Positions 30,001 to 39,000 of a stretch of DNA of 64,000 nt are shown one piece after another (position 1 is the first letter of the stretch; each line of letters begins with the position of its first letter). The stretch covers positions 202,587,081-202,651,080 of the forward strand of contig CM035846.1 in the NCBI GenBank assembly GCA_020510985.1. Direction: 5' to 3'. This stretch comes from Pholidichthys leucotaenia (lineage: Eukaryota). The position numbers are program-made.

Positions 30001-33000
30001 GCTACGCTGCAAAAGCTGAGACGGGCAGCTGTCCGGCGCCGGATTATTTGGCAGAAATTCCCCGGCCAGCCATAGGGGCTGTGCAAAAACCAGCTCTCTG
30101 CCGGGGAAGTTTCCAAATCCTCTTTTTTCCGCGAAGCGCAAACCCAATAAAACCCATGGCAACCATTATCGCACCTTCTTTTGTCCTGCGGCTCCGGAAC
30201 AGGGAGGAATCCCGGCGCCAGTAATGCTGCGCCTGATATGTGTGACTCTAATGCTAAAAGTGACTGCATCAGGGATTTTCGACCTGAAGTCGCACTTTGC
30301 TACACAGGGCCACAAAAACTGTGTAGCCAAATTCGATCGATGGATGAACATTTTCAGCCAGTGACAGAACCGACGCCTTCCAAATCCAATGCATCACAAG
30401 CAGAAGTGATGTTTTGTCATTTTGTGGCAGAGTACAATCTACCCCCATTGGTGGCAGATCACTTCAGTGATTTGGTGCCAACATTGTTTCCTGACAGCAA
30501 GAGCACTCAATTTTTTTGTGCTACTTGGCTTATTATTTTAACAGATGGACACAACACCAACACTTCAGTTTATTACCTCCGCCAAGGAGGTAATGCTTTT
30601 ACTACTGAACCACTAATCCTATCATTGTCAATCCAATTGCTAGTCATATGTTTTCATGCTCAAGGAATCTGAAAACGTACACACAAACACTGTGGGGGGG
30701 GGAACTGTGGCGCTTGGCGGAGGTCTGCGCTCTCCGAGTGCTTTTCTAGTTTGGTTATGTTTTTGCCAGTGTTTGTCTGTTTGTCTGTTTGTTTGTCTGT
30801 TGGTTAGCAAGATAACTCAAAAAGTTTTGGACGGATTTCGATGAAACTTTCAGGCGTTGTTGGAAATGGAAGAACTGATGAAATTTGGGGGATGATCCGG
30901 ATCACCGTCTGGATACAGGAATTTTTTAAAGGATTCTTTAACATTGTGAGATACAGACATTTTCAACATGTGCGCAGGCGCAATGGAGGGCCCTGGTCGT
31001 CGTGTCTGACGAACACAAACTCCGCGTTCTTCAACGTTTTAGGCACAAAAGCACGCGGAAAACAGTGGTGGGCAGTGAAGAAATACACTCCTCGATGTCA
31101 ATTTATGTTTTAATGACAAAGATGAAGGAGCCCTGCAGGGATACAAATATACAAATATAAAATGACCGCGGCAACTAAATGTGGAGATATGTAATAAAGA
31201 AACCAACATAACTGAATATAACTAACAGAATAAGTAATGAAGCAGAGAAACTTACAGTAACAAAGTCGGTAACCTGATGCAGAGGTTGTGTCATGAACAA
31301 TGGGGAAGCATGAGACAGAACAACAAACAAAATGGATGACTATCCCCTGTTGTTCCATAATATATTCCTTTGCGGCCCCTAGTGGCCGGAGGTAAACTCT
31401 ACACCCCCCCCCCCCCAGTCCGGAAACCAACAAACTGGAAGAGGTAGACGGACTCAATCCTATACCCAATGGCCCGTCTCAGGTTCATAGCACTTGGGCG
31501 GCCTCCTCGGGCGGCACAGCTGACGGGGTCGGGGCGATGCTGACGGTGGCCGTGACGCAGGAGATGGAACGGTCGGGGTTGAGACCGTCGGGGCAGGCGC
31601 CACTTGGGTGTCGGTTGCAGGGGCAGCCTCATCGCAGGGTTCCGGCACAGATGTGTCCCGAGCCGAGTTAGGGTGCTCGTCCGCTGACAGCTGAGAGCCC
31701 GGGCGGATATGTGGATACTCTCCCGCCAGGGCATAGGGTGTCGGCAATGGGGCAGCCGGTTGCACATGGGAATGGGGGGTCGCTGGTGTGAAGGCACGAA
31801 GGAACCGCCGGTTGCGTAAAGTGAGACGTCCCAATCCGTCAACCTTGACGCGATACTGATCATGACCCAGAGACTCCACCACCACTCCTGATCTGTCCCA
31901 CTTGTTAGGGCTCGGACCCAACTGATTCTGGAGGAACACCGACTTGCCAAGTGCCAGTGGTCGGAGTGGTCTCGAGTGTGTCCGTAGGGACTCAGTCGTA
32001 CGGGACAGGCGGGTCCGGAGGGCACCCTCCTTTGCCATCCATGCCTGGCGCCAGAGTGGTCGGACATACGGGTTAGAGAACTTCTCCAACCGGTTGACAA
32101 AGGGGAAGGAATCGCGAAGGGGGCGACCAAAAATGATTTGCGCCGGGGAGAGGTGGCAGTCAGGGTCGGGCGTGTTGCGCAATTGCAATATAGCACGCAG
32201 AAAGCGGTCGTGATCGAGGCTGCCTGCCGGGCCAGTATTGGACATCAAAAGACGCTTAGCAGTCTTCACAGCAACCTCCGCTCTCCCATTCGACTGTGGA
32301 AAACCAACTGAAGAGACACGATGCCTGACATGCCATAAGCGCAGGAAGTTCTCTGTGTGGCCTGCCATAAACTCTGGACCACCGTCGCTGGAAAGTTCCT
32401 CAGGAACGCCAAAGGTAGCGAAGAAGGAGCAGAGGTGGCGAACTAAGCCTGCCGAGCCTCCCAGGTCTGTGCCAGCTGAAGAGCTAAGATCTTCCACCCA
32501 GCCTGACAGTCGATCGCCAACAACCAAGTAGTGGCAGCCCCCATAGTCAAAAAAGTCAGCGAACACCGCCTCAAAAGGTGTGGATGGAGGTGGGGATGGC
32601 AGGGGGGGCGTAGCCGCCTGCGAAGGGGCATTCCGATTGCAGTCAGCACATCCATATCTGGTGGCCTGAATGTCTTTGGACATTCCAGGCCAATAGACTA
32701 TAGCACGGGCACGGTTTTCCATAGCAGAAACGCCTTGGTGAGCCGCATGGAGGTGCCAAAGGATTCTGTCCCGGAGGGACGAAGGGACCACCACACGGTC
32801 ACGATACAGCAGCACACCATCCTGAGCATAGATGGCCTCACACACTGGAGATAGGTCCGCCAGGGCAGGGTCATTTGCATCGACCACACCATCGTGTTCA
32901 ATGAGGTGTAGTAGCTGGACAAAGCATGTGTCCGCAGCCGTCTCTTGTGCTAGGAGATGCCAGGAGATTGCTCCAAGTTCCTGAGCGTCATCACGGATGG

Positions 33001-36000: not shown

Positions 36001-39000
36001 ATATATTCCATTCCTCTGCCGATATGCCCACGTCAACTCTAGGGCGATCTAACTTCGGACCATGAAAAGATGGGGGTTGGACGGGCGCCTGGATAGAAGG
36101 GCTCTGATGATTAAATCCATGATTTGTCAGCAAAGCAATGGCGAGGGCTTCAGACACGTCGCCCGTCTTGAAATCACAACCAGGGACAGTGCATTCAACG
36201 ACGACCATGGCTCCTTCATGAAGAAATACACTCCTCGATGTCGATTTATGTTTTAATGACAAAGATGAAGGAGCCCTGCAGGGATACAAATATACAAATA
36301 TAAAATGACCGCGGCAACTAAATGTGGAGATATGTAATAAAGAAACCAACATAACTGAATATAACTAACAGAATAAGTAATGAAGCAGAGAAACTTACAG
36401 TAACAAAGTCGGTAACTTGATGCAGAGGTTGTGTCATGAACAATGGGGAAGCATGAGACAGAACAACAAACAAAATGGATGACTATCCCCTGTCGTTCCA
36501 TAATATATTCCTTTGTGGCCCCTAGTGGCCGGAGGTAAACTCTACAGGCAGGGCCCGGCAGCGTGCCTGTGTTTGCGCTACGCTGCAAAAGCTGAGATGG
36601 GCAGCTGTGCAGCGCCGGATTATTTGGCAGAAATTCCCCGGGCAGCCATAGTGGCTGCACAAAAACAAGCTCTCTGCCGGGGAAGCTTCCAAATCCTCTT
36701 TTGCCGCGGAGCGCAACCCCAATATAAAACCCACGGCAACCTGTCTACCCAATTTGCATCCGTCAGTGAAGCCCTGAGTGCTGCTTTCAGTGGAGGAGAT
36801 GGACACAACACCAACACTTCAGTTTATTACCTCCGCCAAGGAAGTAATGCTTTTACTACTGAACCACTAATCCTATCATTGTGAATCCAATTGCTAGTCA
36901 TATGTTTTCATGGTCAAGGAATCTGAAAACGTACACACAAACACTGTATGGGGAGGAACTGTGGCGCTTGGAGGAGGTCTGTGCTCTCCGAGTGCTTTTC
37001 TAGTTACTTATTAACTCATGGTCTATCAAATCTGTTTCGCAATTGGGTCCTTTTCCTCGCCCTTGAGGGGCAATTCTGATAGGACGCCACCATCCCAGGA
37101 CCCAGCAGGCGGAAAAAGAGGAGGAAAGGCAAGAGGAGGTGGAGAACGGAGCAGCTTCGAGTTGTTATCGAGGTACTCGACTGTGCTGCCACTGTATGAA
37201 GCTGCTCCAAATCAAAGAACACTGTGAAGCATTGGGAGGCTGCCGCAGCGTTGCTGGAGACAAATCCGGACATCCATTCCCATCCTTGGGTGCCAGAACT
37301 TCCTCCGTTTCCACCGTTTTCCACCGCCTCCTCCTCGCCGGAGTCAGCTGACCCATTGCCAACGTTATCTCCTGCAGAGCCCACTGCACCACGGGTCCAT
37401 TGGGAATGATCCATTTCTGAGAGAGAAGAATCACAAGAATCCCAGTTGGTGTTAGGCAGGTCGAAGTGGAAGAAAGGCGCTGGTGACGCCACTCCTCTCA
37501 GCGCTGCAGATTACCACTGTCTCTGGCTCATCTTCAGACAGCCCCTGCTTTCTCCATGACGCACACACCAGGTCCCAACCAGACAATCTCTGGAGCCACC
37601 CAGAGGGAGATGTCTGGACATTTAACGGCAGCAGAGGAGGAACTCAGGCAGGTACCTGTTCATTTTGTGACATCAATAAATGATAGGTCTTGCTGGGTTT
37701 CTCGGTGGGAGGGGCTGGCTGCGGCCATTTGCCGCTGCTGAGCTCTCACCCTCCACCTCTGCCATTCACTCTACTGCCTGCTCCATCCCTTCATCCTCAC
37801 CTGCATCTCTTGTATCTGTTTCTGTTTTTTCTGAGTGTTTGCCAGTACTGGGTGGAAATCATATTGTCTGGGAGGATTGTGCTGCTTCAAAGGGCCCTCA
37901 AGCAGCAGCTGCCTCTACTCTGACACCACTGGACACCAAGTTTTGCCAAATTGGGACTACTGCTTTGGAACCCCTGCGTGAAGGTGACAAGGAGGAACAG
38001 GAGCGTAGGCAGGCTGCGCTAGCTCAGGAAGAGCTAATGCTGGACTACAAGCCGTGGCTCCTTCCAAAGCATGTGTCCCAGCTGGGGCATCAGTGCTCAG
38101 TTCCTGCACTTGTTCCACATCGTTCCCCAGTTCCAGTTTCTGCTCCACGTCCACCACCAACTCCTGTTCCTGCTCTGCCTGTCAGTGTTTCTGTTTTTGA
38201 CTTTGAGGTGGTCACCCCGGTGACAGGAGACCAGGAGTTAAGGCAAGTACCTTTTCAATTATATTCAAACACCAGTTTTAAAGAGTCTTGCCTCGCACCT
38301 GGTGGGGGGACCCAAACGCACGTTCCACCAGCTGTTGAGTCCACCCCAGCAGTCTCTGCTGTTAATGACTGTGGTCACCTCACTGACCTCCTGTTTCCCT
38401 CCATCGTCCAAAGTGGGTGTGTTGAGGATGGGATTGCAGGAGGACCATGTTTCAGCCATCGTTCCCGAGGCCAGGAGACCTTCAGCCATCGTTCCCGAGG
38501 TCAGGAGACCTCTTGCTGCTGCTCCCTTACCCTCACCTTCACGTGCCGTTCCTCTCGTGTCCTCCCCGAGCTTCATGCCTGAAGATGTTGCTCGCCGCCT
38601 GGAGCTGTGGGACCTCATCAGGGATGAGGGAGAGTGCTACATCTTCTGCCAGCAGATGGATGGTTGGCACGATGCTGTGTGGAGGGAAACGGCATGGAGA
38701 CGCACTCATCAGATCATCAGAGTGAAGCCTCATCTGAGGGAGGACATTCCTTCTTTCTGCAACAACTTCCTCGACAACGAGTTCACTTTCATGCTAGAGG
38801 AGGAGTCGTTGCCTGTTCCTGAGTCCGGCGCGCACCTGTCGGCTGTTCTTGCAGACTGTGCTTCTCAGCCATCTGTTATAGACCTGGTGACTCTCCTTCC
38901 ATCTGGTTGTGAATTACAGACCCCTGTATATGCATCCCCTGAGCCAGAAATTTCCACTGTTGTGTGTCCTACACCGGAAATTTTGATAGAAATGTGTCCT

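What the first reader, a model, noticed from the sequence alone, without database searches (positions are those of the whole stretch)
31071..36561. Structurally intact LTR retrotransposon with a ~1580-aa uninterrupted gag-pol. Likely recently active.
Both LTRs are present and near-identical. A perfect 5-bp TSD (GGCAG) flanks the element, and the pre-insertion sequence is preserved in the sister repeat copy at 29970-29980 (gtggtgggcagggcccg). The PPT is a poly-G tract. A single ORF spans gag, PR, RT, RH and IN with no stop. The RT uses CVDD instead of the usual YxDD. The N-terminus carries a C-X4-C…H-X3-H motif (ECTVPGCDF…NHGFNH) ahead of the capsid-like region. It inserted into another mobile module, which itself inserted into a repeat, so it is the youngest event here.
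Basis: partly seen in the sequence, partly recalled or inferred. Interest (0 to 1): 0.7.

Follow-up and report, generated by a model that had tools for sequence, protein, structure and literature searches.

The report
Intact self-priming Ty3/gypsy-type LTR retrotransposon
This is a complete, fairly young copy of a jumping gene of the retrovirus-like (Ty3/gypsy) kind; that is ordinary, but its family seems to start copying itself with the tip of its own RNA rather than a borrowed host tRNA, a trick known mainly from a fission-yeast element.

Summary
On the minus strand lies a 5,471-bp LTR retrotransposon (31076-36546). It has two 328-bp TG..CA LTRs that differ at 4 sites (1.2%), a perfect 5-bp duplication (GGCAG), and the empty site preserved in two paralogous repeat copies. 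A poly-G tract sits next to the 3' LTR, and one 1,582-codon gag-PR-RT-RH-IN frame runs through it.

It is Ty3/gypsy-type, not BEL/Pao: the best solved relative is Ty3 Gag-Pol (E 9e-38). It has no chromodomain. CVDD aligns with Ty3 YLDD and is [C/I][V/I]DD in all 26 aligned members. The N-terminal C-X4-C...H-X3-H motif is invariant, and the gag core models as an Arc/retroviral capsid fold.

There is no tRNA-type site. Instead, 11 nt starting at the last LTR base (ATGAAGGAGCC) are complementary to 11 nt inside the LTR (GGCTCCTTCAT). That segment lies downstream of a TATA-like stretch. A perfect repeat of at least 11 nt occurs in 47 of 61 related loci against about 0.5% of controls, with 43 different arm sequences. 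This fits Tf1-like self-priming, but the transcription start is unmapped.

This copy also carries CpG-type replacements of five otherwise invariant arginines, including the RT fingers arginine. It is structurally intact but may be enzymatically crippled.

It is an ordinary kind of element from an unusual, widespread, unnamed lineage.

The parts
31071..31075 (.). Target-site duplication GGCAG, left copy
   Evidence: The empty site is seen in paralogous repeat copies.
31076..31403 (-). 3' LTR (328 bp, TG..CA). It carries a second copy of the 11-nt self-primer segment at 31122-31132 and of the ATTAAA signal at 31109-31114.
   Evidence: 98.8% identical to the other LTR; I5.
31404..31416 (-). Polypurine tract: G13 on the coding strand, abutting the 3' LTR. 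Relatives have GGGGGGGA or GGGGGGAGA here.
31460..36208 (-). Single gag-pol ORF: 1,582 codons plus stop (stop at 31460-31462).
   Evidence: dN/dS is 0.12 against the pipefish relative.
36107..36193 (-). N-terminal C-X4-C-X18-H-X3-H zinc-finger-like module of Gag (residues 6-34)
   Evidence: Invariant C/C/H/H in alignment A2. The AF2 model has a helix at residues 20-34 preceded by short strand/bridge residues, pLDDT about 95.
35519..36046 (-). Capsid-like two-lobed helical domain of Gag (about residues 55-230)
   Evidence: AF2 model. Foldseek top matches are dArc1, PNMA2, Arc and lentiviral CA. No Pfam or PDB sequence match.
35333..35419 (-). CX2C-X21-CX2C zinc-ribbon-like module followed by a basic stretch, in the position of the usual CCHC nucleocapsid knuckle (residues 264-292)
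   Evidence: Four invariant Cys; pLDDT above 90.
34709..35056 (-). Aspartic protease region (about residues 385-500) with active-site D-T-G-A at residues 403-406
   Evidence: D[TS]GA conserved in the alignment. No Pfam match, so the boundaries are approximate.
33599..34411 (-). Reverse transcriptase (about residues 600-870). Motif C is CVDD at 33914-33925. The fingers Arg is replaced by Gln (R663Q) in this copy.
   Evidence: Pfam RVT_1, 3e-11; alignment to Ty3 RT.
33170..33586 (-). RNase H (residues 875-1013)
   Evidence: Pfam RT_RNaseH 2e-15 and RT_RNaseH_2 3e-10.
31784..32788 (-). Integrase: HHCC finger (residues 1141-1195), DDE core (about 1200-1370) and a C-terminal SH3/GPY-F-like region (about 1405-1475)
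   Evidence: Pfam Integrase_H2C2 2e-12; rve is weak in this copy but matches all 26 relatives at E<=0.05, best 5.5e-9. PFV integrase 1.5e-12. H, H, C, C, D, D, E are invariant.
31466..31489 (-). Conserved C-terminal motif YEPETGHW (family consensus RPxRxRxPPKxYEPETGxW); function unknown
36209..36219 (-). Primer-binding site, the 3' arm: sense ATGAAGGAGCC. Its first base is the last base of the 5' LTR and its last base abuts the start codon.
   Evidence: (I6).
36219..36546 (-). 5' LTR (328 bp)
36265..36275 (-). Self-primer segment, the 5' arm: sense GGCTCCTTCAT. It is the inferred first 11 nt of the transcript (start of R).
   Evidence: The TSS itself is inferred, not mapped.
36284..36305 (-). 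TATA-like AT-rich stretch (sense TTTTATATTTGTATATTTGTAT), about 25-30 nt upstream of the 5' arm
   Evidence: read by eye. A strict TATA regex did not fire.
36252..36257 (-). Polyadenylation signal ATTAAA, 19 nt from the start of the 5' arm. AATAAA or ATTAAA is at the same offset in five other close relatives.
36220..36236 (-). Short hairpin GAGGAG-UGUAU-UUCUUC immediately 5' of the PBS (U5-IR-like)
36547..36551 (.). Target-site duplication GGCAG, right copy

Best explanation
The locus is a full-length, env-less LTR retrotransposon of the Ty3/gypsy (Metaviridae) type, inserted on the minus strand into one copy of a ~1.1-kb host repeat.

Its single polyprotein has these parts, in order:
- a Gag with an N-terminal C2H2-like finger, an Arc/retrovirus-type capsid domain and a CX2C...CX2C zinc ribbon;
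- an aspartic protease;
- an RT whose active-site motif is CVDD;
- RNase H;
- an HHCC/DDE integrase.

Replication is most likely primed not by a tRNA but by the element's own RNA, as in fission-yeast Tf1. In this model, transcription starts in the 5' LTR at or just before GGCTCCTTCAT. These 11 nt fold back onto the complementary ATGAAGGAGCC that begins at the last LTR base. RNase H then cuts to free a short primer, and minus-strand synthesis starts from it. The poly-G tract primes the plus strand, and integration makes a 5-bp duplication.

Shown: the anatomy, the homology, the complementarity, and its covariation across the family.
Inferred: the transcription start, the RNase H cut, and actual priming.

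The insertion is young (1.2% LTR divergence). This copy has probably begun to decay by CpG mutation.
For: Anatomy: LTRs, TSD, empty site, PPT and ORF.

Homology:
- Pfam RVT_1, RT_RNaseH, RT_RNaseH_2, Integrase_H2C2 and rve.
- Best solved relative is Ty3 Gag-Pol 7q5b, E 9e-38 across RT-RH-IN.
- The gag model matches dArc1, PNMA2, Arc and lentiviral capsids.

Family under purifying selection: dN/dS is 0.12 against the pipefish copy. Relatives with 100% identical LTRs exist in Festucalex and Nematostella.

Self-priming:
- There is no TGG after the LTR. An 11-nt perfect inverted repeat joins the LTR/internal junction to a site 45 nt upstream.
- The same architecture with different sequences is found in relatives, e.g. 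GACTTCCTCAT/ATGAGGAAGTC in Nematostella and GGTGTCGTCAT/ATGACGACACC in L008.
- A perfect repeat of >=11 nt occurs in 47 of 61 related loci, against 7 of 1,180 coding-region control windows and 6 of 1,220 shuffles.
- There are 43 distinct arm pairs among 50 loci.
- In the loci I checked where LTR ends are set independently by the LTR pair or the TSD (about a dozen), the 3' arm starts at the last LTR base.
- RNAalifold on 13 close relatives gives an 11-bp stem with compensatory changes at 8 of 11 pairs, plus a small hairpin next to the PBS.
- The window RNA folds this way at -26 kcal/mol, z = -3.2.
- An AT-rich TATA-like stretch lies ~25-30 nt upstream of the 5' arm. A YAG precedes the arm, and a poly(A) signal sits at +19 in the window element and five other close relatives.
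- Tf1 uses exactly 11 nt (PMC7175516).
- Controls in the same window: a chromovirus shows a sushi-type self-primer, and another gypsy element shows a normal TGG site.
Against: - No transcript data are available, so the 5' arm being the RNA 5' end is inferred. No fetched contig starts at the arm, and my strict TATA regex missed the AT-rich stretch in most loci.
- 14 of 61 loci show no perfect repeat of >=11 nt. These may be truncated, decayed or mismatched copies, but I did not check.
- The sequences used for the RNAalifold counts were chosen for perfect complementarity. The real test is therefore the frequency comparison with controls, not the pair counts.
- Phylogenetic placement among named gypsy clades was not possible, because no reference set was available.
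- R663Q and four other CpG-type Arg losses suggest this copy may not be functional. However, the pipefish copy with identical LTRs also deviates at 10 conserved columns.
Confidence: 0.75

Rival explanations
1. The inverted repeat is a conserved RNA structure with another role, such as packaging, dimerisation, control of translation of the adjacent start codon, or strand-transfer help. Reverse transcription would then be primed by something else.
For: - The stem sequesters the cap-proximal end and, in the window element, abuts the start codon.
- The 3' arm necessarily contains an out-of-frame upstream ATG.
- No transcript or cDNA data exist.
Against: - No alternative primer site is visible.
- In the loci I checked with independently defined LTR ends, the 3' arm sits exactly where a PBS must be, starting at the last LTR base.
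- In distant relatives the arm lies 20-190 nt from the start codon, so it is tied to the LTR edge and not to the ATG.
- The commonest arm length, 11 nt, equals that of Tf1.
Confidence: 0.15
2. The element is conventionally primed by a host tRNA or tRNA fragment whose binding site I failed to recognise.
For: tRNA priming is the rule for LTR elements. The host's tRNA set is not available to me.
Against: - There is no TGG at or near the LTR edge.
- The sequence after the LTR differs in almost every relative (43 arm pairs among 50 loci), while tRNA 3' ends are conserved.
- Each variant is matched by a compensating change inside its own LTR.
Confidence: 0.04
3. The copy is an intact-looking but dead relic. 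It kept its reading frame by chance for about 1-6 million years and can no longer transpose on its own.
For: - LTR divergence of 1.2% implies roughly 29 substitutions in the ORF. The chance of no stop among them is appreciable (my estimate, about 0.25).
- There are 10 deviations at 535 family-conserved columns. Five are CpG-type Arg->Cys/Gln changes, four at residues invariant in 25 of 25 relatives and one at a residue shared by 23 of 25.
- R663Q aligns with the Ty3 Arg that, by my own alignment from memory, corresponds to HIV-1 RT R72. R761C is next to CVDD.
- 3 of the 4 LTR differences are CpG transitions.
- CpG o/e is 0.75, against 0.82-0.89 in relatives with identical LTRs.
Against: - All cis elements are intact: both arms are perfect, and the PPT and TG..CA ends are present.
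- All catalytic D/E/H/C residues are present.
- The pipefish relative with identical LTRs also deviates at 10 conserved columns, so this count alone is not diagnostic.
- This rival concerns present activity, not what the element is.
Confidence: 0.5
4. It is a BEL/Pao element or an env-less endogenous retrovirus rather than a Ty3/gypsy-type element.
For: - The single large ORF and weak Pfam RT score (43.8 bits) show it is divergent.
Against: - No Peptidase_A17 or other BEL/Pao domain matches in any of 26 members.
- The Ty3 match (E 9e-38) is far stronger than those to retroviral RTs (E 7e-10 to 1e-7).
- There is a single RNase H with no tether domain, no env, and only 56 nt between the stop codon and the PPT.
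Confidence: 0.02

Closest known systems
Tf1/Tf2 of Schizosaccharomyces pombe and the Tf1/sushi group of self-priming chromoviruses (Tj1, Maggy, Skippy, sushi-ichi; Tcn1 clade)
   Same: - No tRNA primer site.
- A PBS at the 5' LTR edge complementary to a short segment inside the same LTR.
- The 11-nt length is the same as in Tf1 (PMC7175516).
- A small hairpin lies next to the PBS.
- Like Tf1 (from my own knowledge), Gag and Pol are in one reading frame.
   Different: - No chromodomain in any of 26 members.
- Pol is only 24% identical (145 bits) to the sushi-type chromovirus in the same window, against 31-33% (320 bits summed) to a non-chromoviral gypsy element there.
- Gag has no CCHC knuckle and no Retrotrans_gag match.
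- RT motif C is [C/I][V/I]DD, not YxDD.
- R-U5 is only ~57 nt, against ~477 nt in the window's chromoviruses.
Ty3 of Saccharomyces cerevisiae (type member of Metaviridae; PDB 7q5b, 4ol8)
   Same: - PR-RT-RH-IN order.
- Best sequence match of RT, RNase H and integrase.
- 5-bp target duplication, TG..CA ends and an Arc-like capsid fold.
   Different: - Ty3 is tRNA-primed, has gag and pol in two frames, a CCHC nucleocapsid and YLDD.
- Identity to Ty3 is low: only the 132-bit score over 676 residues was measured.
Gypsy element at 53304-57833 of the same window (unnamed lineage; RT motif HADD)
   Same: - Closest pol in the window.
- Shares LTTFITPFGR in RT and the H..HQG...RA...V[YW]WPG pattern in the integrase finger.
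- Also lacks Tyr in motif C.
   Different: - It has a standard TGG primer site (TGGTGTCAGAAGTCGGCG), two CCHC knuckles, separate ORFs and 151-bp LTRs.
Gmr1-like and Mag-like fish gypsy families (single gag-pol ORF)
   Same: Fish hosts. Gag and pol are fused in one ORF of comparable size; Gmr is 1,506-1,634 aa (PMC11117352).
   Different: - From my own knowledge, not checked in the papers read, Gmr1-like elements have integrase upstream of RT. Here it is last.
- Mag elements are shorter (about 1,330-1,365 aa).
- No sequence comparison was possible.
Troyka (proposed separate superfamily; PMC12440569)
   Same: Divergent gypsy-like elements of marine animals including Nematostella, with a single Gag-Pol and an unusual Gag zinc finger.
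   Different: Troyka has CG..CG ends, 3-bp duplications and a CX2CX8-10HX4C finger. This element has TG..CA ends, 5-bp duplications and different fingers.

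Membership tests
LTR retrotransposon (generic) | Two direct long terminal repeats with TG..CA ends, flanked by a 4-6 bp target-site duplication | tested here: met
   328-bp LTRs, 98.8% identical, TG..CA, with a 5-bp GGCAG duplication. The empty site is seen in two paralogous copies.
LTR retrotransposon (generic) | Polypurine tract next to the 3' LTR and a primer-binding site next to the 5' LTR | tested here: met
   G13 abuts the 3' LTR. The PBS is present but of the self-complementary type, not the tRNA type.
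Ty3/gypsy (Metaviridae) | Pol domain order PR-RT-RH-IN, with RT/RH/IN most similar to gypsy-type proteins | tested here: met
   Pfam domain order. Ty3 Gag-Pol E 9e-38 is the best PDB match, ahead of CaMV, spumavirus and MLV.
Ty3/gypsy (Metaviridae) | Gag with a retroviral-type capsid fold | tested here: met
   AF2 model with mean pLDDT 80.9. Foldseek matches dArc1 capsid (E 8.5e-4, prob 1.0), PNMA2, Arc and lentiviral CA.
Ty3/gypsy (Metaviridae) | CX2CX4HX4C nucleocapsid knuckle | tested here: not met
   No CCHC knuckle. An invariant CX2C-X21-CX2C module occupies that position instead, and a C2H2-like finger sits at the N-terminus.
Ty3/gypsy (Metaviridae) | YxDD in RT motif C | tested here: not met
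   CVDD in this copy. The motif is [C/I][V/I]DD in all 26 aligned members and aligns to Ty3 YLDD. The catalytic DD is kept.
Ty3/gypsy (Metaviridae) | Placement in a named clade (chromovirus, Mag, Gmr1/Osvaldo, CsRn1, Barthez and others) by RT/IN phylogeny | not testable with these tools
   No reference sequence set was available. There are only pairwise scores to two other gypsy elements in the window.
Chromovirus / Tf1-sushi group | Chromodomain at the integrase C-terminus | tested here: not met
   No Chromo match at E<=0.05 in any of 26 members. The C-terminus is a proline-rich tail ending in YEPETGxW. The window's chromoviruses do carry a chromodomain-like motif, [13 protein letters not shown], read by eye.
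Chromovirus / Tf1-sushi group | Pol sequence closest to chromoviruses | tested here: not met
   24% identity and 145 bits to the window's chromovirus pol, against 31-33% and 182+138 bits to a non-chromoviral element. This is a pairwise comparison only, not a phylogeny.
Tf1-type self-priming (mechanism) | No tRNA-type PBS. The sequence at the 5' LTR edge is complementary to a segment inside the same LTR. | tested here: met
   An 11/11 complement joins 36209-36219 and 36265-36275. The same is seen in 47 of 61 related loci, against about 0.5% of controls.
Tf1-type self-priming (mechanism) | Complementarity maintained by compensatory change among relatives | tested here: met
   43 distinct arm pairs among 50 loci. 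8 of 11 stem pairs show double changes in 13 close relatives. Caveat: the sequences were picked for perfect pairing.
Tf1-type self-priming (mechanism) | The complementary segment is the first ~11 nt of the transcript | not testable with these tools
   Indirect support only: a TATA-like stretch ~27 nt upstream, YAG before the arm, and a poly(A) signal at +19. No contig begins at the arm.
Tf1-type self-priming (mechanism) | U5-IR-like stem-loop adjoining the PBS | tested here: inconclusive
   A 4-6 bp GAGGAG/UUCUUC hairpin is predicted and conserved in close relatives, with one covarying pair. It is too short to be decisive.
Tf1-type self-priming (mechanism) | RNase H cleavage after nt 11 frees the primer | not testable with these tools
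   This needs biochemistry.
BEL/Pao | Peptidase_A17 protease and BEL/Pao-type RT/IN | tested here: not met
   No such Pfam match in any of 26 members.
Gmr1-like gypsy elements | Integrase located upstream of RT (copia-like order; this definition is from my own knowledge) | tested here: not met
   Integrase is C-terminal.
Troyka | CG..CG termini and 3-bp duplications (PMC12440569) | tested here: not met
   TG..CA termini and 5-bp duplications here. Seven relatives also show 5-bp duplications.
Endogenous retrovirus | env gene, or a retroviral RT-tether-RNase H arrangement | tested here: not met
   Only 56 nt lie between the stop codon and the PPT. There is a single gypsy-type RNase H.

The most novel reading that the evidence does not exclude
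The element represents a large, so far unnamed lineage of gypsy-like retrotransposons. By its distinctive gag alone it comprises 921 clusters at 50% identity with E <= 1e-10, found in fish, cnidarians and marine metagenomes. The lineage lies outside the chromoviruses, yet replicates by Tf1-style self-priming with an 11-nt primer. If so, self-priming either arose independently in animals or is much older and more widespread in Metaviridae than the Tf1/sushi-Tcn1 distribution suggests. The lineage would also show that an LTR-element RT works with Cys or Ile in place of the Tyr of YxDD, and that a Gag works with C2H2 and zinc-ribbon modules instead of a CCHC knuckle.
Probability: 0.35. Interest if true: 0.55.

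Novelty: new member of a known kind. Interest (0 to 1): 0.35.

Why it matters
As an insertion, it is routine genome content. Fish genomes hold many such elements, and this window alone has three other gypsy copies.

The family-level features are of modest interest to transposon biologists.
- A tRNA-independent primer would make these elements invisible to PBS-based annotation tools. It would also make them immune to host defences that use tRNA-fragment small RNAs against the primer site (PMC7472051).
- It extends the known range of Tf1-like self-priming beyond chromoviruses.
- It offers natural variants of the RT active-site motif and of Gag nucleic-acid-binding modules.
- Relatives with identical LTRs in Nematostella and a pipefish are candidates for an experimental system.

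Tried and rejected
- BEL/Pao, ERV, Troyka and Gmr1 classifications: each failed a defining feature (see the membership table).
- Recent horizontal transfer between fish and cnidarians: suggested by 73% protein identity to a Nematostella copy, but not supported. Synonymous sites are saturated (pS 0.77) against Nematostella, and dS is 1.24 even against the pipefish copy.
- Direct transcript evidence for the start site: none of the fetched contigs begins at the 5' arm or carries a poly(A) tail.
- Naming the clade from the literature: searches for CVDD, Barthez, Gmr1 and self-priming found no description matching this family. The Troyka paper's supplementary alignments are not held, and Lin & Levin 1997 is not held.
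- Rfam scan of the whole window: no hits.
- Pfam on ORFs of the host repeat and neighbours: no hits, so the nature of the target repeat stays open.
- A strict TATA regex mostly failed. The TATA-like call is therefore by eye.
- Three protein-comparison runs failed on a frame error and were redone with BLASTP in a script.

Full report
**1. The observation**

The region was read on both strands. The element lies on the minus strand.
- LTRs: aligning the two ends gives LTRs of 328 bp at 31076-31403 and 36219-36546. They begin TG and end CA.
- LTR differences: four mismatches, all transitions. Three are at CpG sites, giving 98.8% identity.
- Duplication: GGCAG flanks both ends (31071-31075 and 36547-36551).
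- Empty site: a BLAST of the flanks against the window shows that the element interrupts one copy (B: 30753-31075 plus 36547-37005) of a ~1.1-kb repeat. The neighbour (A: 29650-30751) and an inverted third copy (C: 40152-41275) are uninterrupted. In both, the two flanks overlap by exactly the 5 duplicated bases.
- Polypurine tract: on the coding strand the 3' LTR is preceded by G13 (C13 at 31404-31416).
- ORF: one ORF runs from the ATG at 36208 to the stop at 31460-31462. It has 1,582 codons.
- Copy number: no second copy or solo LTR is in the window.

Everything else is as described.

**2. What it encodes**

Pfam finds RVT_1, RT_RNaseH, RT_RNaseH_2 and Integrase_H2C2, plus a weak rve match, in that order. 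Nothing matches the first ~600 residues, and there is no Peptidase_A17. The same holds for all 26 members of a family alignment.

Against solved structures, the best match is the Ty3 Gag-Pol polyprotein (7q5b, E 9e-38, spanning RT, RNase H and integrase). Next come Ty3 RT, a caulimovirus polyprotein and PFV integrase. Retroviral RTs are far weaker. In that alignment CVDD sits on Ty3's YLDD.

The family alignment shows:
- motif C is [C/I][V/I]DD in every member;
- the protease D[TS]GA, the integrase HHCC and the DDE residues are invariant;
- C6, C11, H30 and H34 are invariant;
- an invariant CX2C-X21-CX2C replaces the usual CCHC knuckle;
- a conserved C-terminal YEPETGxW motif is present.

An AlphaFold model of residues 1-350 (mean pLDDT 80.9) shows three parts. 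The first is an N-terminal module with a helix at residues 20-34 preceded by short strand/bridge residues. The second is a two-lobed helical domain. The third is a small strand-rich module. Foldseek places the helical domain with the dArc1, PNMA2, Arc and lentiviral capsids.

The element is therefore a Ty3/gypsy-type LTR retrotransposon with no env. Only 56 nt separate the stop codon from the polypurine tract. Its Gag is atypical.

**3. The primer-binding site**

Directly after the 5' LTR comes TGAAGGAGCC and then the start codon. There is no TGG.

The repeat search shows that 36206-36219 is complementary to 36265-36278, inside the same LTR. The match is 13 of 14 nt, with 11 contiguous.

The pipefish relative (L001) has the same pair. 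The Nematostella relative (L002) has GACTTCCTCAT/ATGAGGAAGTC at the same place.

I then fetched 80 further related loci from metagenome collections and scanned the 350 nt upstream of each start codon.
- 47 of 61 usable loci have a perfect inverted repeat of at least 11 nt, with 20-100 nt between the arms.
- Only 7 of 1,180 equal-sized windows inside the ORFs do, and only 6 of 1,220 shuffles.
- Nearly all arms have the form N8-15-CAT ... ATG-N8-15. There are 43 different arm pairs among 50 loci.
- Where LTR ends can be fixed independently from the LTR pair and the duplication (about a dozen loci read by eye), the 3' arm begins at the last LTR base.

RNAalifold on 13 close relatives gives an 11-bp stem with compensatory double changes at 8 of 11 pairs. 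It also gives a short GGAG/CUUC hairpin next to the 3' arm. The window RNA folds this way with z = -3.2.

Upstream of the 5' arm is an AT-rich TATA-like stretch (TTTTATATTTGTATATTTG, ~27 nt away), and a YAG precedes the arm. The window element and five other close relatives have AATAAA or ATTAAA 19 nt from the start of the arm.

This is the arrangement described for Tf1. [quoted passage not shown]

The steps not shown here are the transcription start, the cut and the priming itself.

**4. Controls inside the window**

The ORF list revealed three other gypsy copies. Two are chromoviruses, at 15029-20492 on the + strand and 20614-26087 on the - strand. The third is a different element at 53304-57833 on the - strand.

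The same scan finds in both chromoviruses a 10-nt complement (CTGAAGCCGT/ACGGCTTCAG). It joins the PBS zone at the LTR edge (offset +2 in copy A, -1 in copy B, by the BLAST boundaries) to a site ~477 nt upstream. This is the expected sushi-type self-primer. In the third element the scan finds an ordinary TGG site.

By BLASTP, the finding's pol is closer to the third element (31% and 33% identity, 182 + 138 bits) than to the chromovirus (24%, 145 bits). No chromodomain is detected.

The family therefore self-primes like Tf1/sushi but does not look like a member of that group. I could not run a proper phylogeny for lack of reference sequences.

**5. The family**

Full-length relatives at 51-77% protein identity occur in:
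- a pipefish and an eel;
- Nematostella, Actinostola and Acropora;
- many ~5-kb marine metagenome contigs.

A search with the distinctive gag alone finds 1,980 representatives of 50%-identity clusters at E <= 1e-3, and 921 at E <= 1e-10.

Seven relatives show 5-bp duplications. Distant relatives end TA..TA instead of TG..CA.

dN/dS against the pipefish copy is 0.12. Synonymous sites are saturated against Nematostella, so there is no sign of recent cross-phylum transfer.

I found no paper describing this family. It is not Troyka.

**6. Age and state of this copy**

The LTRs differ by 1.2%. With assumed neutral rates of 1-5 x 10^-9 per site per year, this means roughly 1-6 million years. It is probably nearer the low end, because three of the four differences are at hypermutable CpG sites. 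This estimate is my inference; the host rate is unknown.

The cis elements are intact. However, the protein departs from the family at 10 of 535 highly conserved columns. Five departures are Arg to Cys or Gln through CpG transitions:
- R663Q aligns with the Ty3 arginine. By my own alignment from memory, this is the HIV-1 RT R72 position, which contacts the incoming nucleotide (established knowledge).
- R717C.
- R761C, next to CVDD.
- R949Q.
- R1260C.

Four of these positions are invariant in all 25 relatives. R717 is shared by 23 of 25.

CpG o/e is 0.75 in the element, against 0.82-0.89 in the two relatives with identical LTRs and 0.61 in the rest of the window.

The copy is structurally intact but may already be impaired. 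The pipefish copy with identical LTRs also shows 10 departures, so this is suggestive only.

**7. Verdict**

The kind of element is ordinary.

What lifts it slightly is the family-wide, covarying self-primer in a lineage that is not chromoviral by architecture and pairwise similarity. The unusual RT motif and Gag fingers add to this.

Interest is 0.35. The novelty rating is a new member of a known kind.

Noticed in passing
window 15029-20492 (+) and 20614-26087 (-): Two copies of a chromodomain-bearing gypsy element lie tail to tail, about 120 bp apart. Their LTR pairs are 98.1% and 99.0% identical. Copy A is broken into three ORFs; copy B has a 960-aa pol ORF. Both have a 10-nt complement (CTGAAGCCGT in the LTR, ACGGCTTCAG at the LTR edge) about 477 nt apart, which is a sushi-type self-primer.
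   Followed up: partly
window 53304-57833 (-): A third gypsy element has 151-bp LTRs (96.7% identical), a gag with two CCHC knuckles, RT motif C reading HADD, and a standard TGG primer site (TGGTGTCAGAAGTCGGCG). It is the closest pol in the window to the finding's element and may be a sister lineage.
   Followed up: partly
L031, L052, L056, L062, L068 (LTR ends): Distant relatives of the family (38-44% identity by tblastn) have LTRs ending TA...TA instead of TG...CA. They still make 5-bp duplications and have 11-15-nt self-primer arms, with a longer R-U5 of about 85 nt.
   Followed up: partly
window 31466-31489 (-), and the C-termini of all relatives in alignment A2: The polyprotein ends in a conserved motif, RPxRxRxPPKxYEPETGxW, after a variable proline-rich tail, in the place where chromoviruses carry a chromodomain. 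It may be a host-factor or targeting motif. Its function is unknown.
   Followed up: no
P0002/L002 (Nematostella), P0001/L001 (Festucalex), P0017 (Synaphobranchus), P0069 (Actinostola), P0105 (Acropora): The same family occurs in teleosts and cnidarians at 60-77% protein identity over the whole polyprotein. Synonymous sites are saturated, so this reflects strong constraint or old transfers, not a recent jump.
   Followed up: yes
window 36209-36219 (-) and downstream: Because the 3' arm must begin A|TG, every family member carries an upstream ATG in the primer site. In the window element this ATG is out of frame and opens a ~31-codon ORF overlapping the true start, inside a stable cap-proximal stem. 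This may affect translation.
   Followed up: no
window 31404-31416: The polypurine tract is G13 here. Close relatives have G7 followed by A (GGACTGGGGGGGA|TG), so the run seems to have expanded, perhaps by slippage.
   Followed up: no
window 29650-30751, 30753-37005, 40152-41275: The host repeat that received the insertion is present three times. Two copies are adjacent in tandem and one is inverted. Copies A and C contain a 378-bp segment (30165-30542) that copy B lacks, having 55 bp instead. Its nature is unknown and it has no Pfam match.
   Followed up: partly
L006, L008, L027, L035, L036 and others: Several metagenome contigs of about 5.2 kb carry identical 127-nt overlaps at both ends and are circular permutations of one internal region plus one LTR. 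This is either assembly collapse of the two LTRs or reads from one-LTR circles.
   Followed up: no
window 2101-2970, 8088-9287, 27362-28522, 38302-40263, 45712-47913, 12214-13367, 63089-63997: The window is dense with other retroelement remains. I recognised by eye several LINE-type RT ORFs, a Penelope-like ORF with a GIY-YIG motif, and two integrase fragments of another LTR family.
   Followed up: no
window 50263-51327: A tandem array with a period of about 229 bp and 96.5-99.5% identity between offset copies, seen in the self-BLAST.
   Followed up: no
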